Shown piece by piece: positions 4,803 to 62,175 of a DNA stretch of 64,000 nucleotides (position 1 is its first letter; each line of letters opens with the position of its first letter). The DNA comes from Dehalococcoidia bacterium. Its GTDB lineage: Bacteria > Chloroflexota > Dehalococcoidia > Lucifugimonadales > UBA3495. A program made the translations under genes and the position numbers. A model generated the notes under the pieces. The model saw only the letters and a program-made list of their open reading frames with translations. It searched no databases and had not been told where the DNA came from. The DNA lies in contig CBDANO010000004.1 of the NCBI GenBank assembly GCA_965197665.1, positions 447,885 through 511,884 of the forward strand, given 5' to 3'.

Positions 4803-4999
4803 AACCCCGTGGGCAAACTTCCCATGGCCTGTCCGAACGTAACGCAAGGGTAGCCCCACCCAGGAAGGACCGAGGGTGGTTGGCCCGCCGTGGCGGGCCA
4901 ACCACCCTCCATTTCTCTCGTTTAAGACGGGCCGAATCCCACGACGACGTTGTTGCGTTGGCAATTCAACCCGCAACCGAAGAACTTGCGCACCGGGTT
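4803..4999 (-). repeat. Dispersed palindromic element, copy A (197 bp, MITE-like)
   Basis: Ends AACCCCGTGGGCAAACTT / AACTTGCGCACCGGGTT; central palindrome 4872-4909; colinear with copies at 31747, 57728, 34749 and about 22376. Confidence 0.9.
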
Positions 5000-21477: not shown

Positions 21478-21551
21478 TTGGGGGGCCGACGTCCGGAAGA
21501 AACCGGCGTGGGAGGAGCGATTGGTTGCCGGGGTCTTTGCAATAAGGGGCG

Positions 21552-22241: not shown

Positions 22242-22375
22242 CTACACCTCCCTTGAGCTTGAACGGCAGATAGACCTATCGACCGCGAGTTTAGGCAGCA
22301 TCGCTTCCACTGCCCAAGCAGTCCGTTGCGGTGCTGAATATATTCGCCGCCGCTTGGTATGTCAAGTTGCACGGC

Positions 22376-22512
22376 GGCCCTGTACCGGGGGTTTACGGTT
22401 TGGGACTTACCGGCGGCCAAGGTCCGACATAACCCGTCTTCAACGAGAGAAATGGAGTGGGGCAACCTTGCGTTACGTCTGGACGGGCGATAAAAAACCT
22501 GCAGACGCGGTT
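22376..22512 (+). repeat. Dispersed element, copy D (degenerate left end, central palindrome absent)
   Basis: ACCCGTCTTCAACGAGAGAAATGGAG joined directly to TGGGGCAACCTTGCGTTACGTCTGGACGGGCGATAAAAAACCTGCAGACGCGGTT; left boundary approximate. Confidence 0.8.
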
Positions 22513-23626
22513 AGCTAACGAAAATATCCAGGGGTAGAAACGCCGATACTACGAAGTTGGGCACGTCTACGACCTCGCTGATCTTCAAGTCGACGGCCAC
22601 GCTGCAAATGCAGTAGGCCTGCTCCCGGGACCAACCTCTTTCTTGAAGTAGCTGTATCATGGTTAGCAAAGCGTTCTTTGCCGCTAGGGTCGCGTTCTCG
22701 GACTCGTTGACCCCGTCGGCTATGCACATGCCGGTGGAGGCCAGGAAACGGCGCGGGGCGGCCATTTCGGGGCTGGTGAAGTAGTCGTCCCGCTCGAAAA
22801 TGGGGAATTGCAGGTTTCGCCTCGCCGCCTCGCCTTTGCGGACCTGGAAGCTGGCGTGAAAGGTGCAGTCCATCTCGATGGCCGTGCCGCAGCACTCCGA
22901 GTCGCCTTGGGCGTAGTGGCCGTCTCCCGCGGAAAACAAGGCCCCTTCGGTAAAAACGGGCAGCAACAACCTGGTACCGGCGGTAAGCTGCTTGATGTCC
23001 ATATTGCCGCCGTGTTCCCTGGGGGGAATGGTCCGCAGCCCCTCGGAAGCTATGGGTTCGGCGGCCGGCACAGCGCCGGCGGGGTTGGGGCCCACCACGG
23101 CGCCGCCCCGCCGGAGCAGCTCGTCCTCTCGCAATTCAATCTCTCGCCGCATCTCCCGGGACGGGGCGACGCCTATCGTTCCCATGAAGGACGCCTCCGA
23201 AATCCGCACCCCGGGGAGCTGGGGGGATTCGGCGAACCCGTCCTTCATGTTCCAATGGACTATGTACGGTTCCAAGAAGTAGTCCCTGAGAAAACCGAAC
23301 CCGGGGATTATCACGGTGAATCCCCAGCTTCCCGGTTCGATCCGGAGGATGTTAACCTCGAGCAAGTCCCCCGGCTCCGCGCCTTGGACGTAGACCGGGC
23401 CGGTCAAAGGGTGGACCAACCCCAGGTCTATGGCGCCCAAGTCTCCGGCTTTGGAGCTTGGCGTAACCCCCCCGTCGATGGCATTCCTAGTCTGAAGGAC
23501 GACTTCTTCACCTGGGGCCGCCTCCAAGACCGGGGGTATGTCGGGGTGCCAACGGTTATGTCCCTTGGTGGGCTCGTCGGCGCATTGCTTGGTATAGTCC
23601 AACTCGATGCTTTTCAATTTCTTCAC
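22511..23626 (-). CDS. Acetamidase/formamidase family protein
   Basis: HNRWHPDIPP, HPLTGPV, PPREHGGNMD, GDGHYAQGDSE, SEVVDVPN motifs. Confidence 0.92.
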   Translation of the reverse strand: MKKLKSIELDYTKQCADEPTKGHNRWHPDIPPVLEAAPGEEVVLQTRNAIDGGVTPSSKAGDLGAIDLGLVHPLTGPVYVQGAEPGDLLEVNILRIEPGSWGFTVIIPGFGFLRDYFLEPYIVHWNMKDGFAESPQLPGVRISEASFMGTIGVAPSREMRREIELREDELLRRGGAVVGPNPAGAVPAAEPIASEGLRTIPPREHGGNMDIKQLTAGTRLLLPVFTEGALFSAGDGHYAQGDSECCGTAIEMDCTFHASFQVRKGEAARRNLQFPIFERDDYFTSPEMAAPRRFLASTGMCIADGVNESENATLAAKNALLTMIQLLQERGWSREQAYCICSVAVDLKISEVVDVPNFVVSAFLPLDIFVS

Positions 23627-23911
23627 CTCGCCGCAAACTGCTGCAAACTCCTTTAGAAACTCCTTATTGAAGAAGCAGCATTATAGCTTACTCCGGTTGG
23701 CCGCCCAACTACCGGTCAATCGACGCAAGCCGTCAGCCGGGGCACTGCCCGTGAACGGTTTCGGCCGGAGCGCCCCAGGTTGACGGTCTCGCCGAAACCC
23801 TGGATACTGGCCGAGGCGGCCTCTCGTCGAGTTGACCGGCAAGAAGATAGCAAGACTGGGCTTCATAGGCCGTTACCGCGGCCCAATATCCCACCCAAAG
23901 GAGGAAGGAAC

Positions 23912-24781: not shown

Positions 24782-24833
24782 TACCGGAGCAGGCCCGAGT
24801 GGTTCTCGCCCATTCAAGACCAAGAAATTGAGG

Positions 24834-26030: not shown

Positions 26031-26218
26031 AATTTCCCCTAGGGCCGAGTGGGCTCGGTCAGGCCTTTGGTCAAACGCCCGGTCGGGACCCCGGGGTTAC
26101 CCGCAGGAAGAGGCGGGCTCATCTCTGCCTAACAATGGCAACCTGCCCAAGGTTGGCCCCGTTACGCCCGGCCTCGCGTTTGATCGCTGGGATTGGACGA
26201 ATCGCATTTGGTCAGGGG

Positions 26219-27025
26219 CTAACGCCCCTTGGCGTCCGGCTGCAAGGATGACACCGCCGGTTGCTGTTTCATTTCATGAATCAGCCGCAGGCCGATGAGA
26301 GTCAAGTCAGGGTTAATGTGGTCGAAGATCCGCGATTCCTGGGATATGATGTCGGCCAAGCCCCCGGTCCCGACCACCTTGGAGTGTTGGCCCAACTCTT
26401 GCTTGAACCGCGCTACTATCCCTTCCACCAATCCGGCGTACCCGAAGACCAGCCCCGACTGGAGGGCCAAAGACGTGTTCTGGCCGATGGCCGATTTGGG
26501 GGCAACAAGTTCCACACGGCGCAGTTGGGAAGTGTTGAGGAACAGGGCTTCGGCGGCCACCTGAACCCCGGGAGCGATGGCGCCGCCCAAGTACACGCCC
26601 TCTTTCGAGATTGCGTCGAAAACGGTGGCGGTGCCAAAGTCCACGACGATTACCGGTGCGCCGTACAACTCGATGGCGGCCACCGCGTCCACTATCCGGT
26701 CGGAGCCGACGTCCCGCGGGTTATCGTATTGAATACGAAGCCCGGTGCGCACGCCGGCCGAGACCCACAAGGGCTTGGCGCCAAAGAAGACGCGGCACAC
26801 TTGGTCGAGGATGGGAGTCAACGGCGGTACCACGCTGCACATGCTGACGCGATCGATACCGGCCGGGTCCACTCCATTGAGGTTTAGCAGGTTGGTGATC
26901 AACAAACCGTACTCATCGGCCAACCTGCGAGTGTCGGTGGCAATCCGCAAAGTGGTGGTCAGCCGTTCCCCGTCGAACACTCCCAGGGTGAGCATACTGT
27001 TACCGATGTCGATGGCAAGCAACAT
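26219..27025 (-). CDS. coaX: Type III pantothenate kinase
   Basis: AIDIGNS, SVVP, GSDR, VVDFGTAT, GGAIAPG, TGG motifs. Confidence 0.95.
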   Translation of the reverse strand: MLLAIDIGNSMLTLGVFDGERLTTTLRIATDTRRLADEYGLLITNLLNLNGVDPAGIDRVSMCSVVPPLTPILDQVCRVFFGAKPLWVSAGVRTGLRIQYDNPRDVGSDRIVDAVAAIELYGAPVIVVDFGTATVFDAISKEGVYLGGAIAPGVQVAAEALFLNTSQLRRVELVAPKSAIGQNTSLALQSGLVFGYAGLVEGIVARFKQELGQHSKVVGTGGLADIISQESRIFDHINPDLTLIGLRLIHEMKQQPAVSSLQPDAKGR

Positions 27026-27195
27026 GGTGGTTTCAGGGCCGTTTCACGGCTGTTGAGGCTATTTGTGAAGCCGATTATACGTTACGCTTCCCACAGCAGC
27101 AACGCAAGCTATGGGTTTGGATGGAGGGAAGTGCAAAACTGACGCTGGGCCAGGGCGGTGATGTTAGGATGGAAGCATCCTAAAAGAGAGGTTTC

Positions 27196-27468
27196 ATGAT
27201 CGTGGTAAAGGAAACGAGGATTGTCTTTGATCTGAGCGACACCAAGGCTCTCCGGCTGAAGTACTCGCATTGCGGGAGAGAAGCTGTTCTACCCATTGCG
27301 AGAACCGAGGTCCCGAAGCAGTGCCCGTTATGTCACAACGATTGGGAGGTAGACTATCCTGGCAACAGTCGAGGGGATAACTGGCAGCTTGTGGACGTCA
27401 TGCAGAGGTTTCTGAAAGCAGAGCATCCTCGAATGACCGTCCGTTTCGAGGTCGACGGCGAAGGGTAA
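27196..27468 (+). CDS. Small hypothetical protein with possible Zn-binding motif
   Basis: 90-aa ORF with SD GAGG; HCG...CPLCH. Confidence 0.6.
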   Translation: MIVVKETRIVFDLSDTKALRLKYSHCGREAVLPIARTEVPKQCPLCHNDWEVDYPGNSRGDNWQLVDVMQRFLKAEHPRMTVRFEVDGEG

Positions 27469-27516
27469 CCTGCGAGGCGGGCCTGGGGAATCAGACGAAA
27501 ACCCCCGCAGTAACTC

Positions 27517-27544
27517 TTGACACGGTAGCAGGCCGTGGCATGAT
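27517..27544 (+). promoter_or_regulatory. hicAB promoter, probably giving a leaderless transcript
   Basis: TTGACA-16 nt-CATGAT with TG extension; ATG begins 7 nt after the end of the -10; no SD. Confidence 0.5.
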
Positions 27545-27550
27545 GATGAT

Positions 27551-27790
27551 ATGGACAGGGCGGCAGAGCAAATAAGACAGAACCCCCGCAACGTCCGCTT
27601 CAACGACCTTCGTAAAGTCTGCGACTGGTACTTCGGGGAACCCCGGCAGAGGGGCAGCCACCTGATATACCAGACGCCCTGGCAGGGCCAGCCTGTGGTC
27701 AACATCCAGTCCCACAGGGGCATGGCGAAGGTCTACCAGGTTCGGCAGGTACTCAAAGCAATCGACAAACTGGAGGAGCTTGATGGCTGA
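27551..27790 (+). CDS. hicA: HicA family toxin
   Basis: NPRNVRFNDL, RQRGSH, AKVYQVRQVL motifs. Confidence 0.85.
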   Translation: MDRAAEQIRQNPRNVRFNDLRKVCDWYFGEPRQRGSHLIYQTPWQGQPVVNIQSHRGMAKVYQVRQVLKAIDKLEELDG

Positions 27791-27998
27791 GATTTCAGAC
27801 CGATACACCTATCGGGTCTTCTGGTCTGAGGAGGACCAGGAATACGTCGGGGCGTGTGAGGAGTTCGAGTTGCTCAGTCACTTGGACGATACGCCGGAGA
27901 AAGCATTTGCGGGCATCCGTGACCTGGTGGCTTCCTCAGTCCAATGGTTGCGTGAGGAAAACAGGCCGGTGCCCGACCCGACACCCGCCAAGGTCTAG
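27783..27998 (+). CDS. hicB: HicB family antitoxin (short, no C-terminal DNA-binding domain)
   Basis: YTYRVFWSEEDQEYVG..EF..LS...DTPEKA; overlaps hicA. Confidence 0.85.
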   Translation: MAEISDRYTYRVFWSEEDQEYVGACEEFELLSHLDDTPEKAFAGIRDLVASSVQWLREENRPVPDPTPAKV

Positions 27999-28165
27999 GC
28001 GAGCTTTGTTACCAGCCCCGGCCTCCGTACCAAGAGCCAAGACCCCGACGGGTCATTGTCATCCAACCCAACGAGTGGACCACGAATTCCCCTCTTTAGG
28101 GGGAGAGGCGGCGCGGCCTCTCTATGACGGAACTGGAACGCTAGTAAATACGTGAGAAGGAGTCC

Positions 28166-28951
28166 ATGAGCAAATTTTTAGACCGGTTGGAACAAATAAC
28201 TGAGGGCGCTCCGCCCCCGATGGGATTCAGGGCGCCCCGGGGACGAAAGACTCCGGGAATGGCCCTGGTAGGCCAGGTTTCAGGGGCCGACTCGGAAGGA
28301 GTGAGCGCCCTTGCGGACTTGGAACCGGACGCGGTCTTGATTAGCGGCGCAATCAATGCGGCGGCTAAGGAATCCGCTCAAGCCCTCAAGGACGGCGCTT
28401 CATGGGGGGTCAGAGCACCGGCCCTGAGCCAAGAAGACGCTCAAGGACTGGAAGAGGAAGGATGCGACCTGCTGGCCTTTTCTTTAGCCGGCACTCCGTT
28501 GGCCGCGGTAACGTCCGAGGAAATGGCCCGGGTCTTGTGCCTAGACAGGGACATCGACTCTGAGCAACTGCGGGCGGTGGACACCCTGCCGGTTGACGTC
28601 TTGTTGCTGTCCGGCTTCGACGTTTCCGGAGCTTGGACCCTTGAAGACTTGCTGGCCTTGGCCCGGATCAGCTCCCGAGTGGGGAAATACATTCTTCTGG
28701 ACATATCGCAGACACCGGCGGCCAAGGAACTGGAAGCCCTCCGCAACACCGGGGTCAACGGCCTAGTCGCCGACGTTGGCACCTTCGATTCTCAGGGCTT
28801 GGCCGAGTTGAAGCAAGCGCTCCTAGACATGCCGCGCCAAAAGCCCCCTAGGCGGGAAAGGGCCGCCGCGATTCTTTCTCGTTCCGCCTTCTCCCTCGAA
28901 CAAAGGGACGCGCAACCGGAACCTGAACCGGAACCTGAAGAGGAAGAATAG
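28166..28951 (+). CDS. Hypothetical protein, degenerate HpcH/aldolase-like TIM barrel
   Basis: SD AAGGAG; alternating beta/alpha pattern; acidic PEPEPEEEE tail. Confidence 0.65.
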   Translation: MSKFLDRLEQITEGAPPPMGFRAPRGRKTPGMALVGQVSGADSEGVSALADLEPDAVLISGAINAAAKESAQALKDGASWGVRAPALSQEDAQGLEEEGCDLLAFSLAGTPLAAVTSEEMARVLCLDRDIDSEQLRAVDTLPVDVLLLSGFDVSGAWTLEDLLALARISSRVGKYILLDISQTPAAKELEALRNTGVNGLVADVGTFDSQGLAELKQALLDMPRQKPPRRERAAAILSRSAFSLEQRDAQPEPEPEPEEEE

Positions 28952-29127
28952 AAGGCGCACCTGCCCTCTCACGGTACCTCAAGCCTCTCTTGTAGCCCCA
29001 CGCCGCGGCCCGGCGACGGACCCGCCGGTAACTCCGACGGTCACGCCCGCTGCGTCGAAAGCACCCCGTGTTAAAATATCGGCGCGGCGGTTGGCGTTCG
29101 CACTTCGAAACCGGGGGATGGACGTTG

Positions 29128-29574
29128 ATGACCGGTGATCAAGCGGGGGCGGAACCCCCGGACCTCTACGGCCAAGTGCTGCCTGACGACGGCATAGTTG
29201 AGCTTTCCGACAGGCTGACCGGGTATATGACCGAGATTCAACTGGACGGTATGCCCGATGTCATCGGCCAAGTCTTGGACGATTTCTTGGAGCAATGCGG
29301 CGGCATTCCCGAAGACCTGACCGACCCTGATGCTTTCGACCAGATCACGAGGAATCAGCTGGCGGTGACCCTCGCCTATCAGTTGGGCCGATTGGAAGGG
29401 CGCTCGCCGCAGGTGGTGTCGATGATCGTGCGGCAAGCCTTCGAGAAATGGGGTTCCCGCCGGGTGCCCGATTCTCCCGACATCTCCGACGAAGACCTGG
29501 AAAGCCCTAAAGAATTGGTTTATCCCAGGCTGCGCCGCTTGGACTACACCGAACCGGGTGAGGCCAACCCTTAA
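29128..29574 (+). CDS. Hypothetical acidic protein
   Basis: 148-codon ORF in the same orientation as its neighbours; start uncertain. Confidence 0.55.
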   Translation: MTGDQAGAEPPDLYGQVLPDDGIVELSDRLTGYMTEIQLDGMPDVIGQVLDDFLEQCGGIPEDLTDPDAFDQITRNQLAVTLAYQLGRLEGRSPQVVSMIVRQAFEKWGSRRVPDSPDISDEDLESPKELVYPRLRRLDYTEPGEANP

Positions 29575-29715
29575 GCTCCTTGTCTTCATACGGCCCGTGT
29601 TCCCTACCGCTAGGCGGCCCCGTCCCCACGTTTTCCCAAGCGGGAACGAAGGGTCTTCTGGCCTGAGGCCGCGCTCCCCAAACGCCCCTCTTCGGCAGGT
29701 AAAAAGGAGAAACTG

Positions 29716-30897
29716 ATGACGACCCTATCGCCTTCCTACGACCTGGTATTAAATGGAGGTACGTTACTAGACCCGGGTCAAGACATACACGACCGCCGGG
29801 ACGTTGCCTTCAAGGATGGCTTGGTCGCCCAAGTGGCGGAAAGCATCGATCCGGCTTTGGCAAAGGCGTCAGTTGATGTTTCCGGTAAATTGGTTACTCC
29901 CGGTCTCATAGACATTCACGGGCACTTCTACCACGGGGGCAATACCATCGCGGTACACGCCGACGAAAAGTGTCTATCGGCCGGGACGACCACCGCCGTG
30001 GACGCCGGCAGCGCCGGGGTCCAAAACTACATGGCGATGCGCGACTATGTGTTTCCGGCCCACCGGACCAGGCTGTTGGCTTTCTTGCACATTGGAGGCG
30101 TCGGTCTGGCCCTCAACCGATTGGTCGGCGGCGGTTTGCACGACATGCGGGTCATAGACGTTGACCAGACGGCGGACGCTATAAAGAACAATCCGGGTTT
30201 TTGCTTCGGCGTCAAAGTGCGGATGCACTTGAACGCCGTGGCCTATTGGAACGCCCACGCCGCCATGAAAGCGGCAAGGGCCGCCGTCGACCAGTCGGGA
30301 AGCCGCTTGATGGTCCACGTAGCCTCCACACCCATACCTTTGCCCGAGGTCCTCGAATACTTGGGGCCGGGCGACATCTGCACCCACGCTTTCAACGGCG
30401 ACCCTGAACACATCCTGGATGAACGGGGCAAGGTCCGTCCCGAGGTCCGAGCCGCCGCGGACCGGGGAGTGGTGATGGATGTGGCCCACGGCGGCGTTAA
30501 CTGCGATTTGTCGGTAGTCAAGGCGGCGATGGAACAGGGCTTTCCGCCCCACGTCATCAGCAGCGACGTACATATTCCGCCTCCGGGGCGGACCGTCTAT
30601 TTGATGAACGACCTAGTCAGCCAGTTCCACGCTATGGGCCTCCCTCTGAAAGACGCGGTGGCGGCGGCGACCAGCCGCCCGGCGGAAGTGCTGGGGTTGC
30701 AGGACTCTTTGGGTTCTTTGGCCCCCGGAATGGCCGGCGACGCCGCGGTGTTCGACCTGCGCGAAGGCCGCTTCGTCTGGCACGACATGTCCGGCCACAA
30801 CGCCGAGGGTAAATTGCGGTTGGACACGCACCTCACCATCAGCGGCGGCGCGGTAGCCTGGCGGGAAGGGCAGCTAACGAGGACCGGTGAGTGCTGA
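29716..30897 (+). CDS. Amidohydrolase/deacetylase (dihydroorotase-like) metallohydrolase
   Basis: PGLIDIHGH, GTTTAVDAGSAG, GVKVR, MVH, THAF, DVAHG, ISSDVH. Confidence 0.9.
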   Translation: MTTLSPSYDLVLNGGTLLDPGQDIHDRRDVAFKDGLVAQVAESIDPALAKASVDVSGKLVTPGLIDIHGHFYHGGNTIAVHADEKCLSAGTTTAVDAGSAGVQNYMAMRDYVFPAHRTRLLAFLHIGGVGLALNRLVGGGLHDMRVIDVDQTADAIKNNPGFCFGVKVRMHLNAVAYWNAHAAMKAARAAVDQSGSRLMVHVASTPIPLPEVLEYLGPGDICTHAFNGDPEHILDERGKVRPEVRAAADRGVVMDVAHGGVNCDLSVVKAAMEQGFPPHVISSDVHIPPPGRTVYLMNDLVSQFHAMGLPLKDAVAAATSRPAEVLGLQDSLGSLAPGMAGDAAVFDLREGRFVWHDMSGHNAEGKLRLDTHLTISGGAVAWREGQLTRTGEC

Positions 30898-30911
30898 TCT
30901 ACGGGTCCGGG

Positions 30912-31577
30912 TCACTCGACGGTGGCCATAACCCGGGCCAAGAGCTCGTCGTTTAGGTAGAACACGAAGTCCACCGGTTCCCCCGGAGGAAATTGGGACC
31001 GGTCAACGGCCACCATAATCATTGGGGCAAACAGATAGGGGTATTCCTTGCCTTGGGCCGCCTCCTCTAATTCCAGCAAGACATCGGCCCGGTTGCCCTC
31101 CAGAGAGAAGCCGACGACCGATAGCGGATCGCCTTGGAGGGGCCGCCACAGGTAGTAGACGGCAAGTAAGACGGACTTGGAGAAATTGGCCCTCTCCAAG
31201 CTGGTCGACGTCCCCATGGAACGCTTCATGTCGAAGCCCCCCTCGAACCGGTCCAATTCGCTTTGGGTGGTGATTACGAAAGCCCGCAACTCTTGAGCAA
31301 ACGCTGCCGTTTGGACCGCTCCATAGGGGGAGACCCAACCGCTGTTGACGTACCGCCAAAGAGGAACTTCTATAGAAGTATCCGGAGAAGTATCCGGCGC
31401 CGGGGTATTGACGGGAGGTGCAGTCGCGGTCGACGGCGCCAGAGTATCGGTGGGGAGAATAGTCGGCGTTGCCGGTTCCGGAGTATCGGTAGGGGAAAGA
31501 GTAGCAGTGGCGGGAGCGCCGCAGGCCGCCAGCCAGCCTATAGCGCATAGCAGGATAAAAACCTTGGCGGGCAACAT
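30912..31577 (-). CDS. Hypothetical lipoprotein
   Basis: Lipobox LAAC; P/T linker; beta-rich C-terminal domain. Confidence 0.7.
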   Translation of the reverse strand: MLPAKVFILLCAIGWLAACGAPATATLSPTDTPEPATPTILPTDTLAPSTATAPPVNTPAPDTSPDTSIEVPLWRYVNSGWVSPYGAVQTAAFAQELRAFVITTQSELDRFEGGFDMKRSMGTSTSLERANFSKSVLLAVYYLWRPLQGDPLSVVGFSLEGNRADVLLELEEAAQGKEYPYLFAPMIMVAVDRSQFPPGEPVDFVFYLNDELLARVMATVE

Positions 31578-31746
31578 GGTCGCCTAGAGTCCCAATCCCG
31601 CGCAGACTAAACTATGCAGCATCGAGCGCCGGACGTTCCCTTTCGGGCGCTCTGAATCGAAGTGCCGCGCAACGCCTGCCGGAGGAGGTGGGTACACCCT
31701 GTCCGAACCAGGGCGGCGTAACACACTCATGCAGGGGAAGCTAATC

Positions 31747-31943
31747 AACCCGACGCGCAAGTTTTTTGGCTGCGGATTGGATTGCCGGCACAACAACGTC
31801 TTCATCCGATAAGACCTGTTTGCAACGAGAGAAATAGAGAGTGGTTGGCCCGCCGCGGCGGGCCAACCACTCTCCTTCTTTCTGGGGTGGGGCAGCCCTT
31901 GCGTTGGGTCTGGACGGGCGATAAGAAACTTGCACACGGGGTT
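31747..31943 (+). repeat. Dispersed palindromic element, copy B (197 bp)
   Basis: AACCCGACGCGCAAGTTT ... AAACTTGCACACGGGGTT ends; perfect 38-bp palindrome 31837-31874. Confidence 0.92.
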
Positions 31944-32131
31944 TGCTATCCCCAATCCGGAGTTAGGCGAGTCACCGATATCATATCAAAATCCTGCCGT
32001 GCGATATATCATTACGGGCCAAGCCCTCAATCGGATTGATAACTGTGGAAGGCGTCCGTCTACGCTAAAATCACGTTTCTCCGCACGCGCCAATGCTTGT
32101 AAATGGCTAGGGTGAATGTCAAACTGTATTT

Positions 32132-33010
32132 ATGCGAGTAGGTGAATTCGAGCTGGACGAGCCAGTACCGGAATTAAAAAACCCTCACGTCCTAGCGGTG
32201 CTAAGGCCTTGGATCGACGTGGGCAACGTAGGCACCCTAAGCCTGAGCCGGGTGGAGCGGCACTTGCGGGCCCAAGAACTGGGCCGCTTGGTCCGGCCGG
32301 GCCGCTTCTATGACTTTACTCGTTACCGTCCTCGTTCCTACTTGAACCACGGAAAGCGGGAGTTCTCGATACCCAACACCATTATCCGGTATGCCTCGCG
32401 GGAAGAGGCTTCCGATCTCTTGCTCATTCACCTTCTGGAACCTCACGCCTACGGAGAAGACTACACGGAGTCGGTCCTGGAAGTCCTCAAGTTCTTTGGC
32501 GTCAAGCGGTATTCATTGATCGGCGCTATGTACGACATGGTGCCCCACACCAGGCCGTTGCTGGTATCCGGCGGCGGCGAGCCGGACAGTGATGAAGAAT
32601 ACCGCATGGTCCGGGTCCGCGCCAGCAATTACGAAGGGCCGACCACTATTACTTACTTGATCTCCCTCCAAGCGGGGCAAATGGGGGTTGAGACCCGCAC
32701 CTTCGTCGTGCACTTGCCCCAGTACTTCCAGGTGGACGAAGACTTCACCGGGACCGCCAGGTTGATGGAGATTCTGTGCAGCCTGTACCAGTTGCCCAAG
32801 AGATTGATGGACCGGCAAAGGGGTCAAGAGCAATACGAATCGCTGCAAAACGTCGTGGGGGAAACCTCCGAAGTAGCGTCCCTGCTGCAGCGATTGGAAG
32901 AGCGGTACGACAAGGAGCAGCAGGACGATATCGCGCCGACTCCGCCCCTGTCTCAGAACATCGAGGAGTTCTTGGGCCAACTCGATAGAGACTTCGACTC
33001 GAAGGAGTAA
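32132..33010 (+). CDS. PAC2 (proteasome assembly chaperone-like) family protein
   Basis: WIDVGNVG, FYDFTRYRP, LEP, VPHTRP, YEGPT, LPQY motifs. Confidence 0.85.
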   Translation: MRVGEFELDEPVPELKNPHVLAVLRPWIDVGNVGTLSLSRVERHLRAQELGRLVRPGRFYDFTRYRPRSYLNHGKREFSIPNTIIRYASREEASDLLLIHLLEPHAYGEDYTESVLEVLKFFGVKRYSLIGAMYDMVPHTRPLLVSGGGEPDSDEEYRMVRVRASNYEGPTTITYLISLQAGQMGVETRTFVVHLPQYFQVDEDFTGTARLMEILCSLYQLPKRLMDRQRGQEQYESLQNVVGETSEVASLLQRLEERYDKEQQDDIAPTPPLSQNIEEFLGQLDRDFDSKE

Positions 33011-33366
33011 CTCCCGCCGGTAAGGCGCCCTTTTTCTTATCCACTGCCATACATTGCTTTCGGGTTAGCCCTCTCCGACGTCACTTCCCCACCGCTTCCC
33101 CAGTCCACGGAAGTCCCATCGAGAACCGAGGCCGGCCCCAGGCCTGGAACGGGGGGTGCGCCCCGGATTTTTGCGCCCGCGTCTAAGGCGGAACGCAGCG
33201 ATGGGCCGCTCATAATCAACCCGGCGCGCCGGGTTGGAAAATGGATTGCCGATGCAACTACGACCGTGGCGCGGTGTCAAACAGGCTGCTATCCTCTGGA
33301 TGGTGTTGAAAAGTGTCTTCTCCCCTGGGAGGAGGGACTATAGAAACACCCATTACTCGCTGGGAG

Positions 33367-34722
33367 ATGGATACTGGAGTATCGATGGTGGCGCCGCCTC
33401 ATTCCCTTCCAACGGCTGACCTGTCCCGGGGACCGGTGGAGTTGCTGCAAACGCTGATCAGCTTCGACACTACCAATCCCCCGGGCAATGAGAAAGACTG
33501 CATAGAATACCTTCGCGCCCTGCTGGACCGCGCCGGGTTAGAATCGGTGACGTTGGGCCGCTCCCCAGACCGGCCCAACCTTGTCACCAGGTTGGAAGGC
33601 CGTGGTGAAGCGCCGCCCCTGTTGCTCCACGGGCACGTAGACGTAGTGCCGGCGGGCGGGGGGGACTGGGTTCACCCACCCTTCGAAGGGAAGCAGGTGG
33701 ATGGATACGTTTGGGGGCGCGGCGCTCTGGATATGAAGGGCGGCATCGTCATGATGCTGTCGGCATTACTGAGATTGAAAAGAGAAAAGGTCTCTCCGCC
33801 CGGCGACGTTGTCCTAGCGTTGGTAAGCGACGAAGAAGCCGGAGGAGAGGTCGGTACCAAGTACCTGGTGGAGAACCACAAAGAGTTGTTTGCGGGCATT
33901 CGGTACGCCGTCGGCGAATTTGGCGGCTTTAGCTTTCCCATAGCCCGGCGGCGGTTCTACCCCATCATGGTGGCGGAGAAGCAGATTTGCGTCCTGCGGG
34001 CCACAATAAGAGGCGCGGCAGGCCACGGTTCTCTACGAGCCCGGGATGGAGCGACCGCCATGCTGGCCCGGGTTCTGGGGCGTTTGGAGCGTCGCCCGTT
34101 ACCGGTCCACGTAACCCCCGTGGCCAAGGAAATGTTCCAGTCCGTCAGCTCCAGCTTGTCTTTCCCATTGAACGGCCTCTTCCGCCTATTACTCCGCCCG
34201 TCAACCACCGGTTTGGCCCTCAAGGCCATGGGCTCCCAGGGATTGCTGTTCGGGCAACTGCTGCGCAACACCGCCAATCCGACCATGTTGCGGGGCGGCG
34301 ACCAAATAAACGTCGCGCCCAGCGAAATCTTGTTGGGGCTAGATGGGCGGATACTGCCCGGTTATACGCCGGACGATTTGATGTCCGAGGTCAAAGCCGT
34401 CGTTGGCGAGGACATAGAATTGGAGGTGGTACACCACGACCCCGTACCGTCGAGTCCGGATATGGGGCTGTTCGGGACCTTGGCGGAAGTTTTGCGCCAC
34501 GCCGACCCCGAGGGCATTCCGGTCCCTATGTTGCTGCCCGGCGCCACGGACGGGAGGTTTCTTGCCAGGCTGGGAATCCAAAGCTACGGGTTCCTGCCTA
34601 TGTCATTACCGCCGGATTTCAACTTTTCTCAGACTATCCACGGCCCCAACGAACGAATTCCAACCCAAGCGTTGTCCTTCGGCTGCGAGGCTATGTACCA
34701 ACTGCTTCGACGCTTCGGCTAG
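33367..34722 (+). CDS. M20/M25/M40 family metallopeptidase
   Basis: TTNPPGNE, HGHVDVVPA, GRGALDMKG, DEEAGG, GATD, IHGPNERI; start uncertain (33367 or 33385). Confidence 0.92.
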   Translation: MDTGVSMVAPPHSLPTADLSRGPVELLQTLISFDTTNPPGNEKDCIEYLRALLDRAGLESVTLGRSPDRPNLVTRLEGRGEAPPLLLHGHVDVVPAGGGDWVHPPFEGKQVDGYVWGRGALDMKGGIVMMLSALLRLKREKVSPPGDVVLALVSDEEAGGEVGTKYLVENHKELFAGIRYAVGEFGGFSFPIARRRFYPIMVAEKQICVLRATIRGAAGHGSLRARDGATAMLARVLGRLERRPLPVHVTPVAKEMFQSVSSSLSFPLNGLFRLLLRPSTTGLALKAMGSQGLLFGQLLRNTANPTMLRGGDQINVAPSEILLGLDGRILPGYTPDDLMSEVKAVVGEDIELEVVHHDPVPSSPDMGLFGTLAEVLRHADPEGIPVPMLLPGATDGRFLARLGIQSYGFLPMSLPPDFNFSQTIHGPNERIPTQALSFGCEAMYQLLRRFG

Positions 34723-34748
34723 GGCTGGTGGTCAAAGCCGCCTCAACT

Positions 34749-34935
34749 AACTCATGTGCGGGTTTTTGATCGCCTGTCCAGGCTTAACGTAAGGGTTGGC
34801 CCACCCCGGTAAGATAGGTCGTGATGGGCCGGCCTATCACGACCTAATTCCGCGGCAGAAGCCGGGCTACATCGAGGGACAACGCTGTTGCATTAGCAAT
34901 CCCTTTTCCAACCCGGCAAACCTGCACGTCGGGTT
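34749..34935 (-). repeat. Dispersed element, copy E (diverged, different central palindrome)
   Basis: AACTCATGTGCGGGTTTTTGATCGCCTGTCCAGG..TAACGTAAGGGTTGGCCCACCCC matches the arm of copies A/B; ends AAACCTGCACGTCGGGTT; hairpin 34815-34846. Confidence 0.8.
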
Positions 34936-35026
34936 GTTTATGTCGGGTTGTTTATAAGCGGTCTCTTGCTCCGCTCCACCTTGGACAACGGCGCAAAAAT
35001 CCGGGGCGCCGCGAGCTTCTTATTGA

Positions 35027-35055
35027 TTGACGCTGGGCAGGCCGTGTGGTAGAGT
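35027..35055 (+). promoter_or_regulatory. Promoter of infC-rpmI-rplT
   Basis: TTGACG-17 nt-TAGAGT with TG extension. Confidence 0.6.
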
Positions 35056-35108
35056 GAACCACCAAATGCCTTTGGATTTCATCAAGAATTAATCGGAGGT
35101 AGACGAGT

Positions 35109-35684
35109 ATAGCTAGGCAATATCGGGTAAACGAGCGGATCACGTCTCCCCAAGTGCGGGTGATCGGCGAAGACGGCGAGCAACTGGGGGTGATGGCCGT
35201 CGGGCGAGCGCTGCAATTAGCGAGGGCGTCGGATACCGACCTAGTGGAAGTAGCTCCCAACTCGGACCCTCCGGTGTGCCGCCTGCTAGACTACGGAAAA
35301 CTGCGCTACCTTTCCTCCAAGAAAGAACGAGAGTCCAAGAAAGGGCAAAAGAGCACCGACCTCCGCGAAGTCCGGTTCCGCCCCAACATCGGCAGCCACG
35401 ACCTAGCGTCCAAGACCCGCAAAGTCAGGGAACTAATCCAGGACGGCTCAAAAGTCAAGCTTACGGTGCGGTTCCGAGGCCGGGAAGCCGCCCACCAGCA
35501 GCTGGGCTTGTCGGTGCTGAAGCGTGTGGCCGACGAATTACGCGATGAAGTCCGCCTAGAAAGGGCACCGGTCATGGAGGGGAGAGCCCTGTCGATGATC
35601 CTCATCCCCTCTTTGCAGCGCAGCGAGAAGACCGATCAGAAGGCGGAACAGAAGGTCGAAGATTTAGCCGATGCCAAAACTTAA
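35109..35684 (+). CDS. infC: Translation initiation factor IF-3 (non-canonical ATA start)
   Basis: YRVNERI..PQVRVI, DLVEVAP..PPVCRLLDYGK, KVKLTVRFRGRE; SD GGAGGT 8 nt before in-frame ATA at 35109. Confidence 0.95.
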   Translation: MARQYRVNERITSPQVRVIGEDGEQLGVMAVGRALQLARASDTDLVEVAPNSDPPVCRLLDYGKLRYLSSKKERESKKGQKSTDLREVRFRPNIGSHDLASKTRKVRELIQDGSKVKLTVRFRGREAAHQQLGLSVLKRVADELRDEVRLERAPVMEGRALSMILIPSLQRSEKTDQKAEQKVEDLADAKT

Positions 35685-35868
35685 GACACACAAAGGCGCC
35701 AAAGCGCGCATCCACGTTACCGGCTCGGGAAAGCTGATGCGCCGCAAGCGAATGAGCAGCCATCTCAGACGTAAGAAACCCAACAAGATAACCCGCAAGT
35801 ATGCCCAGAAGCTTCTCTTGGACCCTACCGCCGTCGATCGGATGAAACGCTTGCTTCCTTACGGCTAG
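35671..35868 (+). CDS. rpmI: 50S ribosomal protein L35
   Basis: MPKLKTHKGAKAR..TGSGK; position between infC and rplT. Confidence 0.95.
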   Translation: MPKLKTHKGAKARIHVTGSGKLMRRKRMSSHLRRKKPNKITRKYAQKLLLDPTAVDRMKRLLPYG

Positions 35869-35935
35869 CCCCAGCCAAGGCTTTCCTAATCGTTGAGTCC
35901 GAGTCGGGATTTCGAATACTGCCGGAGATATAGCC

Positions 35936-36334
35936 TTGCCTAGAGTAAAACGCGGCGTCACCAAACATCGCCGACACAAGAAGGTGATGCTGGCGGCCAG
36001 AGGCTTTCAAGGGTCCTCACACCGTAACTACAAGTGGGCCAAAGAGGCCCTGATCCACGCTTGGGACCACGCCTACCGGCACCGGAGGCAACGGAAAGGC
36101 GACTTTCGTCGTTTGTGGATCGTCCGCATCGGGGCCGCTTGCCGCCAATCCGGGACTACCTACAGCCGGTTCATCCACGGGCTCAGCAAGGCCGGCGTGG
36201 AGTTGGACCGGAAGATGCTCGCCGACCTGGCCGTGCGGGACCAAGCAGCCTTCGCAAAACTCGTGGAGATATCCCTAGAACAAGAAACGGGAACAAGAAA
36301 CGGCTTGAAGGACCACCAGGAAGCGCCGGCGTAA
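35936..36334 (+). CDS. rplT: 50S ribosomal protein L20
   Basis: [37 protein letters not shown]. Confidence 0.97.
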
Positions 36335-36361
36335 TTCCGGGGGGCGGACTGAGTTCAGCAG

Positions 36362-36393
36362 GGGCGCGTACAACGCGCCCTTTCTATTTATTT
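36362..36393 (+). terminator. Intrinsic terminator after rplT
   Basis: GGGCGCGT-ACA-ACGCGCCC followed by TTTCTATTTATTT. Confidence 0.75.
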
Positions 36394-36398
36394 CCCGT

Positions 36399-36836
36399 CT
36401 ACTTCCCGCCGCCGCGACCCACGCTGGAGAACCCGTAATAGGTATCGGCGTCGAGTATCCGGGCCAAGGCCGCTTCGGAAAGGATTATGGGACGAACCGG
36501 GGTCGCCCACCGTTCCGTCAATTCGTAGTGCAAATCGCTTAGGGGCGTGGGCTTGTTGCCTCTAGCCAACAACACCCGAAAAACGATCTCTTGCACCGGC
36601 ATTTCGGTCCGTATGTAATCGTCTTGGTTACCCGAATATTTGGCGATCTCGTCGATTAGCTCCTGAGGACTAGTCAATTCGTGGTCCGGCCGCTGCCGTG
36701 ACGGGGAGGACTCGGGCCGCCGCTCCGCCACCATAGCCAGCGCGGACCGCTTTAGCTCGGACAAGCGGTCAAAACTTATTCGGAAGGCCAGCGGACTTTC
36801 GGGCTGTTGGGGCGTCTTTGGAGAAGTAGTGGTCAT
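36399..36836 (-). CDS. Hypothetical protein, possible winged-helix (HARE-HTH-like)
   Basis: ATGA overlap with moeA; VQEIVFRVLLARGNKPTPLSDLHYEL segment. Confidence 0.65.
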   Translation of the reverse strand: MTTTSPKTPQQPESPLAFRISFDRLSELKRSALAMVAERRPESSPSRQRPDHELTSPQELIDEIAKYSGNQDDYIRTEMPVQEIVFRVLLARGNKPTPLSDLHYELTERWATPVRPIILSEAALARILDADTYYGFSSVGRGGGK

Positions 36837-38179: not shown

Positions 38180-38180
38180 G

Positions 38181-42829: not shown

Positions 42830-43045
42830 AAAGCTCTCCGCCGACCGCCGTCCTAAAGCCCGTCATTCAAGGCCGTGTATAATTAACGCGGCGTGGGGCA
42901 GCCCTCGCGCTATCCCGGGACGGGCGACAAGATACTTGCACATGACGTTAATCAACCGAGGCCGGCAGCGAGGCGCAAGCTCGATTGTTATGCCGCTCCG
43001 ACCCCAGCGCCGCGCCGGAGCGCCGGTCTCACGAGGAGACAACCC

Positions 43046-56775: not shown

Positions 56776-57729
56776 ATGGGTGATAAATTGATCGGTATAC
56801 ACGTACGCGGGACCAAGGTGAAAGAGATCCAGGCGGCTATCGAACAGGCCGAGGAAGTCGGGATACACGCCGCGTGGATGACCACCGCAGGCGCCCAATT
56901 AGACAGCATCACAACCTTTGCCGCAGTTGCCGCTCAGACCCGGAAAATCAAGCTCGGCACTTCCATAGTGCCAACGTACCCCCGTCACCCGTTGGTGATG
57001 GTACAGCAAGCGCAGGTCGTGTCCCAGCTAGCGCCCGGCCGGTTCCGCTTGGGGATCGGCCCCAGCCACCGTCCTACGATGCGCACCATGGGCATACGGT
57101 TGGACGACCCTCTCGGTCATTTGAAAGAGTACCTACGCATTCTGAAGGCGCTCCTGCAAAACGGCAGGGCGGACCACGGCGGGGAGTTCTATCAAGCCCA
57201 CGACAGCGTCGCCGAGCCGGTGCATGTAGAGGTGATGGCTTCGGCCCTCCAGCGAGGCTCCTTTGAGCTTTGCGGCGCCGAGTCCGACGGGGCTATCAGC
57301 TGGGTATGCCCCTGGCCCTACTTGCGGGACGTGGCGCTGCCCGCGATGCAAAAGGGCGCGGAAGAGGCGGGGAGGTCGACGCCGCCGTTGATTGCCCACG
57401 TGCCGGTTTGCGTCCATGAAGATGCCGCCGAGGTCCGGGCCGCCTACCGGGAGCAGTTCGCAATATACCCCAAGCTGCCCTTCTACCGGCGCATGCTCAT
57501 CGCCTCGGGCTATCCTGAGGCCTCGGAAGCCGCTTGGAGCGACGCCATGATTGACGGGCTAGTAGTCCATGGCAACGAATCAGAAGTATCCCAGGGGCTT
57601 CAGGAGCTGCTATCCAACGGTGCCTCCGAGCTCCTGGTCTCTCCGGTACTGGCCGGTACCGACCATTCCGCGTCGATGGACCGCACCGTTAAGTTACTGG
57701 GCCGGATGGCGCAGTCAGTAGCTAAGTAA
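56776..57729 (+). CDS. LLM-class flavin-dependent oxidoreductase
   Basis: T..IKLGTSIVPTYPRHP, GRFRLGIGPSH, DGAISW. Confidence 0.88.
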   Translation: MGDKLIGIHVRGTKVKEIQAAIEQAEEVGIHAAWMTTAGAQLDSITTFAAVAAQTRKIKLGTSIVPTYPRHPLVMVQQAQVVSQLAPGRFRLGIGPSHRPTMRTMGIRLDDPLGHLKEYLRILKALLQNGRADHGGEFYQAHDSVAEPVHVEVMASALQRGSFELCGAESDGAISWVCPWPYLRDVALPAMQKGAEEAGRSTPPLIAHVPVCVHEDAAEVRAAYREQFAIYPKLPFYRRMLIASGYPEASEAAWSDAMIDGLVVHGNESEVSQGLQELLSNGASELLVSPVLAGTDHSASMDRTVKLLGRMAQSVAK

Positions 57730-57923
57730 CCCGATACGCAAGTTTTTCAGGCTGCGAGTAGGGTTGCCGGCAGGACAACGCCTTCGTCCCATGTGACCCG
57801 TCTTCAACGAGAAGAAGAGAGTGTGGCTGGCCCGCCGCGGCGGGCCAGCCACACTCCATTTCCGGGGTGGGGCAACTCTCGCGCTATGCTTGTACAAGCG
57901 GTAAGAAACTTGCACGCGGGGTA
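57728..57923 (+). repeat. Dispersed palindromic element, copy C
   Basis: AACCCGATACGCAAGTTT ... AAACTTGCACGCGGGGTA; perfect 38-bp palindrome 57819-57856. Confidence 0.92.
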
Positions 57924-62120: not shown

Positions 62121-62175
62121 CGGGTTGGGCGTTTTTGCGCGCCCAGCCGTTTAACCTTGACTCCGGAGGCGGACC

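What the first reader, a model, noticed from the sequence alone, without database searches (positions are those of the whole stretch)
31747..31943. Dispersed ~197-bp element family with inverted ends and a central palindrome (five copies in 64 kb)
Seen: colinear, diverged copies at 4803-4999 (inverted), 31747-31943, 57728-57923, 34749-34935 (inverted) and about 22376-22512. All are intergenic apart from stop-codon overlaps, and copies A and B are both exactly 197 bp. Shared blocks, in order: left end AACCCG..[A/G]CGCAAGTT, TTGCC..., CCCGTCTTCAACGAGAGAAA, a central palindrome, GGGTGGGGC..CCTTGCGTT..TCTGGACGGGCGATAAG, right end AAACTTGCAC.CGGGGTT. No transposase is present in the window. Inference: either a non-autonomous MITE-like element or a high-copy structured ncRNA/nucleoid-binding site. 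At this density there could be many copies genome-wide. I do not recognise it as a named family.
Basis: partly seen in the sequence, partly recalled or inferred. Interest (0 to 1): 0.8.

Follow-up and report, generated by a model that had tools for sequence, protein, structure and literature searches.

The report
Orphan IS982-type MITE family
The 197-bp repeat is a decayed family of miniature, non-autonomous transposons whose ends match IS982-type insertion sequences in sister genera, so it is an ordinary kind of bacterial mobile DNA, not a new RNA gene.

Summary
All five window copies are real, and the family has about 115 loci in the 3.1-Mb genome, 114 of them intergenic.

It is a MITE. It has 18-20-bp terminal inverted repeats (AACCCGRYGTGCAAGTTT), a likely 4-bp target-site duplication at T|ARYT|A-like sites, one filled/empty paralogous site and no room for a transposase.

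The same terminal repeat bounds 1-kb elements encoding IS982-family transposases in two sister genera. It also matches 13 of the first 14 bases of an annotated cyanobacterial IS982. The home assembly (86% complete) has no IS982 transposase, and copies are old (median 70% identity), so the family is probably an immobile fossil.

A structured-RNA reading is not supported:
- There is no Rfam match.
- G·U does not exceed A·C on either strand (19 vs 18).
- Private mutations hit stem and non-stem columns equally.

The central 40-nt palindrome shows shared compensatory variants, so it mattered to the spreading element.

A roughly 2:1 orientation bias relative to flanking genes remains unexplained.

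Verdict: new member of a known kind, modest interest.

The parts
31747..31943 (+). Copy B, full-length 197-bp element (reference copy)
   Evidence: CM 226 bits over 31741-31949; sequence read. Lies in a divergent spacer between the genes 30915-31289(-) and 32132-33007(+, PAC2 family).
31747..31766 (+). Left terminal inverted repeat of copy B (AACCCGACGCGCAAGTTTTT)
   Evidence: Pairs with 31924-31943. TIR helices are 78-82% paired over 22 copies. The same 18-mer bounds IS982-family elements in G002 and G017.
31924..31943 (+). Right terminal inverted repeat of copy B (AGAAACTTGCACACGGGGTT)
31836..31875 (.). Central 40-nt palindrome of copy B (18-bp GC-rich stem, 4-nt centre), flanked by an A-rich tract on the left and a T-rich tract on the right
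   Evidence: Flagged as terminator-like on both strands. Across copies 95% and 92.5% of cells are paired, and 13 of 17 pairs show changes on both sides. Totals are 561 WC, 19 GU, 18 AC and 24 other cells.
4803..4999 (-). Copy A, full-length 197 bp, inverted
   Evidence: CM 193 bits; divergent spacer.
57728..57923 (+). Copy C, full-length 196 bp; its left edge touches the stop codon of the luciferase-like monooxygenase gene 56776-57729
   Evidence: CM 203 bits.
34749..34935 (-). Copy D, sub-family 2, between the peptidase M20 gene and infC
   Evidence: CM 163 bits.
34936..35020 (-). Roughly 70-85-nt extension conserved on the left side of sub-family-2 copies, ending in TATAA-type sequence (approximate limits)
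   Evidence: Conserved in 11 of the 12 sequences aligned (the twelfth, C5:294308, was a false pick). Only a weak 17-nt similarity to the reverse complement of the element's right arm.
22371..22518 (+). Copy E, internally deleted copy abutting the stop codon of the formamidase gene (22514-23626, minus strand)
   Evidence: CM 53 bits, E 9e-12.
42863..42955 (+).
   Evidence: CM 28.6 bits, E 1e-5; nhmmer right-arm hit.
33158..33313 (+). Probable very degenerate sub-family-2 copy: extension-like sequence at 33158-33223, followed by a weak model match at 33212-33313
   Evidence: blastn of copy D's flank, 80% over 66 nt; CM 14.9 bits, E 0.027. Weak.

Best explanation
[quoted passage not shown] It is a 197-bp non-autonomous DNA transposon that was mobilised in trans by an IS982-family DDE transposase.

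Shown:
- It is bounded by 18-20-bp terminal inverted repeats (AACCCGRYGTGCAAGTTT).
- It occurs at about 115 almost exclusively intergenic loci.
- Its terminal sequence is the one that bounds autonomous 1-kb IS982-family elements in two sister genera, and it nearly matches that of an annotated cyanobacterial IS982.
- The home assembly has no IS982-family transposase.
- Copies are old (median pairwise identity 70%) and accumulate private mutations at the same rate in all parts.

Likely, with moderate support: insertion duplicates 4 bp of a T|ARYT|A-like target.

Inferred:
- The transposase bound the terminal repeats, and staggered 4-bp target cuts gave the duplication.
- The helper IS was later lost from this lineage, leaving immobile, neutrally decaying fossils.
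- The central 40-nt GC-rich palindrome was a functional part of the spreading element. Its variants are compensated and shared between copies, not restored after insertion. It may have helped the ends meet or stabilised a folded intermediate, or it may have acted as a bidirectional transcription stop that made insertions tolerable.
For: Family and copy number:
- 148 nhmmer hits and 115 merged loci.
- 71 terminal motifs against 1 for the reversed control.

Location:
- 114 of 115 loci are intergenic.
- They spread over tandem, divergent and convergent spacers (66/33/15) in proportion to spacer bases (59/28/12%), which fits insertion wherever it is tolerated.

Target duplication:
- Flanks match as direct repeats only at k=4 (1.91 vs 1.42 matches per copy, 0 of 2000 permutations as high). 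Inverted matching is at chance, 1.44 vs 1.44 (45 end pairs, some spurious).
- Non-consensus perfect duplications exist: AACA/AACA and AGTT/AGTT.
- The G017 IS has AATT/AATT.
- Both G008 MITEs have AGCT/AGCT.

Filled/empty site: paralogous two-gene blocks (about 80% identical) carry the element at C3:334352-334514 and lack it at C5:~26620-26640, where the site reads CCAC-TAGC-CAGC.

Cognate family:
- The G002 element is 1006 bp, with copies 97-99.7% identical (4 fetched, 3 with both ends) and ends AACCCGATGTGC...GCACATCGGGTT.
- Its ORF hits NF033520, IS982 family transposase, at 189.6 bits (cut-off 130), and PF13612.
- G017 has an intact relative (71% identical) with its left end AACCCGGTGTGCAAGTTG 3 nt before the ORF.
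- An annotated IS982 on a Pseudanabaena plasmid has the 21-nt TIR AACGCGATGTGCAACTAAGAA, 13 of the first 14 bases identical to the MITE end.
- An IS982-derived MITE is already published for Cardinium (PMC9769881, abstract and passages).

Orphan status:
- No IS982 hit over the cut-off in the home genome (best 39 bits), and none with the G002 protein.
- No home IS family has matching ends.

Against an RNA gene:
- Central stem cells are 561 WC, 19 GU, 18 AC.
- The private-change rate is 1.58% in the stem and 1.61% elsewhere.
Against: - On the 29 best-defined full copies the TSD signal is only marginal: 10 copies with <=1 mismatch at k=4 against 6.0 expected (p=0.048), and 2 perfect against 0.96 expected.
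- The target consensus is itself palindromic, so many flanks cannot tell a duplication from an extended inverted repeat.
- The three young G002 IS copies with both ends do not show clean 4-bp duplications: AATT/AGTT, AATT/AGCT, TGCT/AGTA.
- The single filled/empty pair is between paralogs only about 80% identical, and its junction is ambiguous by one base. A second candidate was not clean.
- Beyond the terminal ~18 nt the interior shows no detectable similarity to the IS982 elements, so descent by internal deletion is not shown.
- The home assembly is 86% complete, so a helper IS could be unassembled.
- No between-strain insertion polymorphism was examined.
- The orientation bias relative to flanking genes (46 vs 20 in tandem spacers, p=0.002) is not predicted by neutral fossils.
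Confidence: 0.85

Rival explanations
1. The copies, whatever their origin, now serve the host as bidirectional intrinsic terminators or other orientation-dependent transcript elements. The GC-rich hairpin with an A-tract upstream and a T-tract downstream would stop or stabilise transcripts. This can coexist with a MITE origin.
For: - The palindrome scores as terminator-like on both strands in copy B and on the minus strand in copy C.
- 23 of 115 loci abut a neighbouring stop codon, and the median distance to the upstream stop in tandem spacers is 32 nt.
- Orientation is biased towards the direction of flanking genes: 46 vs 20, and 22 vs 6 in tight spacers.
- A review notes terminator-like MITEs such as SPRITE (PMC10969869, passages).
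Against: - There is no enrichment at gene 3' ends. Convergent spacers hold 15 of 114 loci (13%) against 12% of spacer bases, and divergent (promoter) spacers hold 33 (29%) against 28%.
- Private mutations hit the stem as often as other columns (1.58% vs 1.61%), and only 11 of 30 complete stems are unbroken. This argues against selection on inserted copies.
- Tail T-richness is similar on both strands, so it does not explain the orientation bias.
- The bias fades with strict gene calls (24 vs 15, p=0.2).
Confidence: 0.1
2. A multi-copy structured non-coding RNA gene family, in which the terminal pairing and central hairpin are RNA helices.
For: - Single copies fold far better than shuffles on both strands (z -6.2 and -5.4).
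- The central helix shows many double changes.
- Sub-family 2 has a TATAAT-like sequence just upstream of the element start.
Against: - No Rfam family matches.
- G·U does not exceed A·C on either strand: 19 vs 18 in the central stem, 43 vs 32 in the TIR helices. Transcribed helices normally tolerate G·U only.
- RNAalifold recovers only the palindrome.
- The element is absent from 30 relatives by BLAST and 150 genomes of the class by the covariance model.
- It has target duplications and an empty site.
- Its ends are those of IS982 elements.
- The consensus scan finds no promoter-like site.
Confidence: 0.03
3. A REP/REPIN-type palindromic element spread by a RAYT (Y1) transposase.
For: High copy number, intergenic location and a GC-rich palindrome.
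Against: - No Y1_Tnp (PF01797) match in the assembly, while the control genomes ring.
- The element is 197 bp with long terminal inverted repeats and flanking duplications, unlike 20-40-bp REPs (size as given in the abstract of PMC3733652, seen in the listing).
- Its ends match a DDE-type IS982 family.
Confidence: 0.01

Closest known systems
IS982-family insertion sequences (autonomous; e.g. the annotated element on Pseudanabaena sp. ABRG5-3 plasmid NZ_AP017561.1, and the unnamed elements in G002 and G017)
   Same: Terminal sequence: AACCCGATGTGCAAG... against AACGCGATGTGCAAC... (13 of the first 14 bases), AACCCGATGTGCATG... in G002 and AACCCGGTGTGCAAG... in G017. All have flanking duplications: 9 bp in Pseudanabaena, 4 bp in G017.
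   Different: The window's element is 197 bp with no transposase gene. Its interior has no detectable similarity to the 1-kb elements. It carries a 40-nt central palindrome.
IS982-derived MITE of the Cardinium endosymbiont of Oedothorax gibbosus (PMC9769881; abstract and three passages read)
   Same: A short (about 240 bp) transposase-less repeat flanked by inverted repeats like those of an IS982-family element (ISCca4). It is lineage-specific and present in many copies in a host-associated bacterium.
   Different: In Cardinium, intact parental IS copies are present and the MITE is thought to be actively maintained. Here no parental IS is found in the genome and the copies are old. I did not compare the sequences.
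166-bp MITEs of genome G008 (same taxonomic family, other genus; L098, L099)
   Same: The same terminal repeats and the same AGCT-type target duplication, plus an internal GC-rich hairpin.
   Different: The interior is unrelated. The covariance model scores only the ends (about 10 bits by nhmmer). Not found by BLAST with the element.
Classical bacterial MITE/small-repeat families (Correia, ERIC, RUP, SPRITE, as reviewed in PMC10969869 and PMC2229807; the first read in passages, the second seen in a listing only)
   Same: Size class, TIR plus TSD anatomy, intergenic location, strong predicted folding, clustering with other repeat families, genus-level restriction (PMC11602168, passages).
   Different: Different transposase family and sequence. 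My recollection that those families derive from other IS families, or from unknown ones, comes from no call.

Membership tests
Prokaryotic MITE | Terminal inverted repeats of at least 10-15 bp (definition as in PMC11602168) | tested here: met
   18-20-bp TIR, 78-82% of cells paired over 22 copies; 71 terminal motifs genome-wide against 1 for the control.
Prokaryotic MITE | Target-site duplication of 2-10 bp | tested here: met
   Direct-repeat signal only at 4 bp (0 of 2000 permutations). It is marginal on the 29 best copies (p=0.048). Perfect examples are AACA, AGTT and AGCT. Related elements show AATT/AATT (G017) and AGCT/AGCT twice (G008). Caveat: the target consensus is palindromic.
Prokaryotic MITE | Small size (50-800 bp) and no transposase gene | tested here: met
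   197 bp. The longest open stretch in any of 22 copies is 72 aa. 0 of 59 window genes is a transposase.
Prokaryotic MITE | Multiple dispersed copies, mainly intergenic | tested here: met
   115 loci, 114 intergenic.
Prokaryotic MITE | Evidence of past mobility (empty versus filled sites) | tested here: met
   One filled/empty paralogous pair. A second candidate was not clean. No between-strain comparison was done.
IS982-family-dependent element | Ends matching those of elements that encode an IS982-family transposase | tested here: met
   G002 IS (NF033520 at 189.6 bits, cut-off 130) and G017 IS share 17-18 of 18 terminal bases with MITE copies. The annotated Pseudanabaena IS982 shares 13 of 14.
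IS982-family-dependent element | Helper transposase present in the same genome | tested here: not met
   Best NF033520 hit is 39 bits against a cut-off of 130. No hit with the G002 protein. The assembly is 86% complete, so absence is not proven. This bears on current mobility, not on origin.
IS982-family-dependent element | Transposase actually binds and moves the element | not testable with these tools
   Needs a mobilisation or binding assay.
Rfam RNA family / structured ncRNA | Match to a curated covariance model | tested here: not met
   Only 4 tRNAs reach gathering score in the window.
Rfam RNA family / structured ncRNA | Strand-specific covariation (G·U tolerated, A·C not) | tested here: not met
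   19 GU against 18 AC in the central stem; 43 against 32 in the TIR helices.
REP/REPIN | RAYT (Y1 transposase) in the genome; 20-40-bp palindromic unit without TSD | tested here: not met
   No PF01797 match, while controls ring in 6 of 14 genomes. The unit is 197 bp with flanking duplications.
Intrinsic terminator-like repeat (SPRITE-like) | GC-rich hairpin followed by a T-tract | tested here: met
   Pattern scan: both strands in copy B, minus strand in copy C. This is a consensus match only.
Intrinsic terminator-like repeat (SPRITE-like) | Preferential placement at gene 3' ends / depletion from promoter spacers | tested here: not met
   Convergent 13%, divergent 29% and tandem 58% of loci, matching spacer bases at 12/28/59%.

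The most novel reading that the evidence does not exclude
The central palindrome is not passive cargo. It would be a selected module that this bacterial family's IS982-type MITEs repeatedly acquire: the G008 family also pairs the IS982 ends with an internal GC-rich hairpin, and an unrelated ~260-bp repeat family in the home genome has its own TIRs around a hairpin. In the home genome, the orientation-biased copies in tight operon spacers would act as host-tolerated or host-used transcript punctuation. That would make the family a case of a lost transposon's relics wiring gene expression in a sponge-associated symbiont.
Probability: 0.1. Interest if true: 0.45.

Novelty: new member of a known kind. 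Interest (0 to 1): 0.25.

Why it matters
It explains about 0.5% of this genome and removes a candidate 'new ncRNA' from the list.

It records past IS982 activity in a lineage that no longer shows the transposase.

It shows the same IS982 ends giving rise to different MITE families in sister genera.

The shared compensatory variants in the palindrome, set against neutral decay of inserted copies, separate selection on the spreading element from selection on the host.

For annotation, the model can mask these loci. The stop-codon-rich target (T|AGCT|A plus the element's AA) explains why several genes end at an element's edge.

Tried and rejected
- RNA evidence: four metatranscriptome runs labelled sponge metagenome held 6-9% of the words of a 9.9-kb stretch. 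Laid on window 20000-39999, none of their listed contig pieces (32 listed, 284 not shown) and no depth bin showed cover over the three element copies there. This is uninformative either way.\n- Replication-linked orientation (as for single-strand transposons): orientation does not follow local GC skew, 55 vs 60.\n- Longer autonomous element in the home genome: inverted end pairs 0.6-2.7 kb apart enclose a methyltransferase, PrpD, amidohydrolases, SecA and CoA-transferases, not a transposase.\n- Home IS families have unrelated ends. These are rve/IS481- or IS3-like, IS21, DDE_3/IS630-like, DDE_Tnp_1_4 (recalled to be the IS1380 group), and other DDE_Tnp_1 elements.\n- TA duplication by an IS630-type enzyme was my first idea. 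I dropped it when the k=2 direct test showed nothing.\n- Copies elsewhere:\n - An exact two-block pattern gave 5 loci in genome contigs and 7 in metagenome contigs, and 0 of 12 pass the model.\n - Two patterns in viral contigs gave 7 loci, all <=10 bits.\n - There was no blastn match in plasmids or phages.\n - These exact patterns recover only 5-12 of the home copies, so diverged relatives could be missed.\n- The second filled/empty candidate (C4:207354 vs C3:243849) is a 156-bp indel containing unrelated sequence too, so it was not counted.\n- Sub-family 2's extension as an inverted right arm: only a 17-nt match, 2 of 500 shuffles as high.

Full report
**Observation.**
- An alignment of the claimed intervals shows colinear blocks.
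- A covariance model built from 22 copies (alignment A2, model R1), run unfiltered over the window, returns four full-length matches: 31741-31949 (+), 57722-57929 (+), 4797-5005 (-) and 34742-34941 (-), at 163-226 bits.
- It also returns the internally deleted copy at 22371-22518 (53 bits), a sixth remnant at 42863-42955 (E 1e-5) and two weak traces.
- Copies A and B are each 197 bp from AACCCG to GGGGTT.
- A profile of the four best window copies finds 148 hits in the 3.10-Mb, 5-contig genome. After merging there are 115 loci (34 full length, 27 left-arm, 32 right-arm, 22 other), or 15.1 kb and 0.49% of the genome.
- The high-copy inference is therefore right.
- None of the 59 predicted genes in the window is a transposase (Pfam, E<=1e-8).

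**Anatomy.** The element has three parts.
- Terminal inverted repeats of 18-20 bp (AACCCGRYGTGCAAGTTT).
- An asymmetric interior.
- A central perfect 40-nt palindrome (consensus GGAGTGTGGTTGGCCCGCCG|CGGCGGGCCAACCACACTCC), flanked by an A-rich tract on one side and a T-rich tract on the other.

Single copies fold much better than shuffles on both strands (z -6.2 and -5.4). RNAalifold recovers essentially only the palindrome.

**RNA or DNA?** I counted pair types in all candidate helices.
- In the 22-copy alignment the two halves of the central stem are 95% and 92.5% paired, and 13 of 17 pairs show changes on both sides. The terminal helices are 78-82% paired.
- In 51 loci that include the centre, the stem cells are 561 Watson-Crick, 19 G·U, 18 A·C and 24 other.
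- In the terminal helices G·U and A·C are 43 and 32.
- A transcribed helix tolerates G·U but not A·C on its own strand. Equal counts mean no strand is favoured, which points to a DNA-level palindrome.
- Rfam has no matching family: only 4 tRNAs reach gathering score in the window.

**Are inserted copies under selection?**
- Copies are old. Median pairwise identity of the 22 best is 70%, with a maximum of 87%.
- Stem columns differ from the consensus about as much as other parts (15-17% against 15-22%). About 94% of central pairs are intact in those copies, against about 70% expected from independent decay.
- Changes private to one copy hit stem columns as often as other columns: 22 of 1390 cells (1.58%) against 114 of 7073 (1.61%).
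- Of the pairs that depart from consensus, 62 are compensated and 61 are not. Only 11 of 30 complete stems are unbroken.
- My reading: the compensated variants are shared and arose in the propagating lineage, while inserted copies decay neutrally. The palindrome mattered to the element while it was spreading, and there is no sign that the host maintains it afterwards.

**Mobility.**
- The five bases outside each end are non-random: T, A, R, Y, Y on the left and the mirror image on the right. Further out the composition is background.
- I first read this as a TA duplication or an extended inverted repeat.
- A direct test settles the register. Across 45 end pairs (some spurious), left and right flanks match each other as direct repeats only at k=4 (1.91 against 1.42 matches per copy, 0 of 2000 permutations as high). 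They match as inverted repeats no better than chance (1.44 against 1.44).
- On the 29 best-defined copies the signal is marginal: 10 copies with <=1 mismatch against 6.0 expected (p=0.048). Perfect non-consensus examples include AACA/AACA and AGTT/AGTT.
- A pair of paralogous two-gene blocks (about 80% identical) carries the element at C3:334352-334514 and lacks it on C5. The empty site there reads CCAC-TAGC-CAGC, and the filled site has AAGC...(T)AGC around the element. The junction is ambiguous by one base.
- A second candidate pair was not clean.

**The cognate transposase.** Nothing in the home genome fits.
- Inverted end pairs 0.6-2.7 kb apart enclose ordinary genes.
- The multi-copy IS families have unrelated ends. 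They are rve-type, IS21, a DDE_3/IS630-like group, DDE_Tnp_1_4 and other DDE_Tnp_1 elements.
- There is no Y1/RAYT transposase.

The element as a whole was not found elsewhere:
- 0 of 30 relatives by BLAST;
- 0 real matches in 150 genomes of the class by the model, which scored only 15 candidates per genome;
- 0 of 12 pattern hits in genome and metagenome contigs;
- nothing in viral contigs, plasmids or phages.

Searching relatives for the 18-nt terminal repeat alone changed the picture.
- G008 has 8 hits against 0 for the control. They include two ~166-bp elements with the same ends, AGCT/AGCT duplications and a different interior.
- G002 has four identical hits that are the left ends of an element whose copies are 97-99.7% identical. 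Three of the four fetched copies have both ends and measure 946-1014 bp; the reference copy is 1006 bp.
- That element has 12-nt perfect terminal repeats and one long ORF. The ORF matches NCBIfam NF033520, 'IS982 family transposase', at 189.6 bits (cut-off 130), and Pfam PF13612.
- A survey of 60 other genomes of the taxonomic family finds relatives of this protein at E<=1e-10 in 8. Five of these are 60-100% identical (G002, G017, G206, G208, G210) and three only 26-30%.
- In G017 the protein is intact (71% identical). The terminal repeat AACCCGGTGTGCAAGTTG lies 3 nt before the ORF, and the ~993-bp element is flanked by AATT/AATT.
- An annotated IS982-family element on a Pseudanabaena plasmid has the perfect 21-nt repeat AACGCGATGTGCAACTAAGAA. 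That is 13 of the first 14 bases identical to the MITE end. It has a 9-bp duplication.
- The end sequence is thus a family signature across phyla, and duplication length varies within the family.
- The home genome has no IS982-family hit over the cut-off (best 39 bits) and none with the G002 protein. The assembly is 86% complete.

**Against the MITE reading.**
- The three young G002 IS copies with both ends lack clean duplications: AATT/AGTT, AATT/AGCT, TGCT/AGTA.
- The MITE's interior shows no similarity to the IS.

**Context.**
- 114 of 115 loci are intergenic.
- Their split over tandem (66), divergent (33) and convergent (15) spacers follows spacer bases (59/28/12%), so they are not concentrated at gene 3' ends.
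- 23 of 115 loci abut a neighbouring stop codon. This fits a target (T|AGCT|A, then the element's AA) that is rich in stop codons.
- In tandem spacers the element's forward orientation is co-directional with the genes, 46 against 20 (binomial p=0.002), and 22 against 6 where the residual spacer is under 100 nt. The bias falls to 24 against 15 (p=0.2) with the strictest gene calls.
- The bias does not follow GC skew, 55 against 60.
- The palindrome scores as terminator-like on both strands with similar T-rich tails, so that does not explain the bias.
- I leave the bias as a modest, unexplained signal. The gene calls come from my own simple codon-model caller and are approximate.

**RNA data.** Four metatranscriptome runs hold small parts of the region, but none of the contig pieces listed covers any of the three copies in the 20 kb laid. 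Nothing follows from this.

**Variants.**
- Sub-family 2 (11 real copies among the 12 sequences aligned, including window copy D) carries a conserved ~70-nt left extension ending in TATAAT. Its similarity to the inverted right arm is only a hint.
- Many partial copies break in or near the palindrome. 17 of 27 left-arm copies end at model positions 96-128, and 23 of 32 right-arm copies start at 104-133.

**Comparison with the literature.**
- The anatomy meets the working definition of prokaryotic MITEs: TIRs of at least 10-15 bp, TSDs of 2-10 bp, 50-800 bp, mostly intergenic, mostly confined to a genus (PMC11602168, passages; PMC10969869, passages).
- An IS982-derived MITE is already described in Cardinium (PMC9769881, abstract and passages).
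- My searches for a description of this family found none. ISfinder was not available.

**Verdict.** This is an orphan, decayed IS982-type MITE family. It is a new member of a known kind, of modest interest.

Noticed in passing
G000:C5:286680-286940 (outside the window); also beside element loci such as G000:C2:82616-82760 and C4:267820-267969: A second, unrelated MITE-like family of about 260 bp. It has its own terminal inverted repeats (GGGTGTTTCAATAGTCCCTTCTCC...) and a central GGGGCGGGTTTGAAACCCGCCCC hairpin. About 35-41 BLAST matches at roughly 90% identity, often adjacent to copies of the 197-bp family.
   Followed up: partly
L098 (G008:C81:8144-8509) and L099 (G008:C88:3013-3375): A sister genus carries ~166-bp MITEs with the same IS982-type ends and perfect AGCT/AGCT duplications but a different interior. 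No IS982-lineage transposase was found in that 89%-complete, 290-contig genome.
   Followed up: partly
L094-L097 (G002) and L108 (G017): Apparently active IS982-family insertion sequences. G002 has at least 4 copies at 97-99.7% identity, some with internal deletions or frame breaks. G017 has one intact copy with an AATT duplication.
   Followed up: yes
window 61839-64000 (G000:C4:509723-515837): The right end of the window belongs to a 6.1-kb segment duplicated at 98.8% identity at G000:C4:81963-88077. The segment runs to the contig end, so it may mark an assembly boundary. A tRNA gene (61774-61859) runs into its start, and another (60874-60944) lies further upstream.
   Followed up: no
G000:C5:1510119-1513852 and G000:C3:428279-431711: Long internally repetitive stretches (self-matches at 70-74% identity, offset by multiples of about 72-145 bp and about 366 bp), probably genes for repetitive proteins.
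   Followed up: no
genome-wide partial copies of the 197-bp family: Breakpoints of half copies cluster in or next to the central palindrome. This may reflect palindrome-promoted deletion, or local alignments ending there.
   Followed up: partly
window 8950-9318 (-): A 123-aa predicted protein with a retropepsin-like aspartyl protease domain (PF13975, E 7e-11), next to a tRNA gene at 9471-9544.
   Followed up: no
window 31584-31955 (-): A 123-aa TTG-start ORF overlaps the whole of copy B. 13 of 132 copy-frames across 22 copies have no stop. Automatic annotation may therefore call spurious small genes across these elements.
   Followed up: partly
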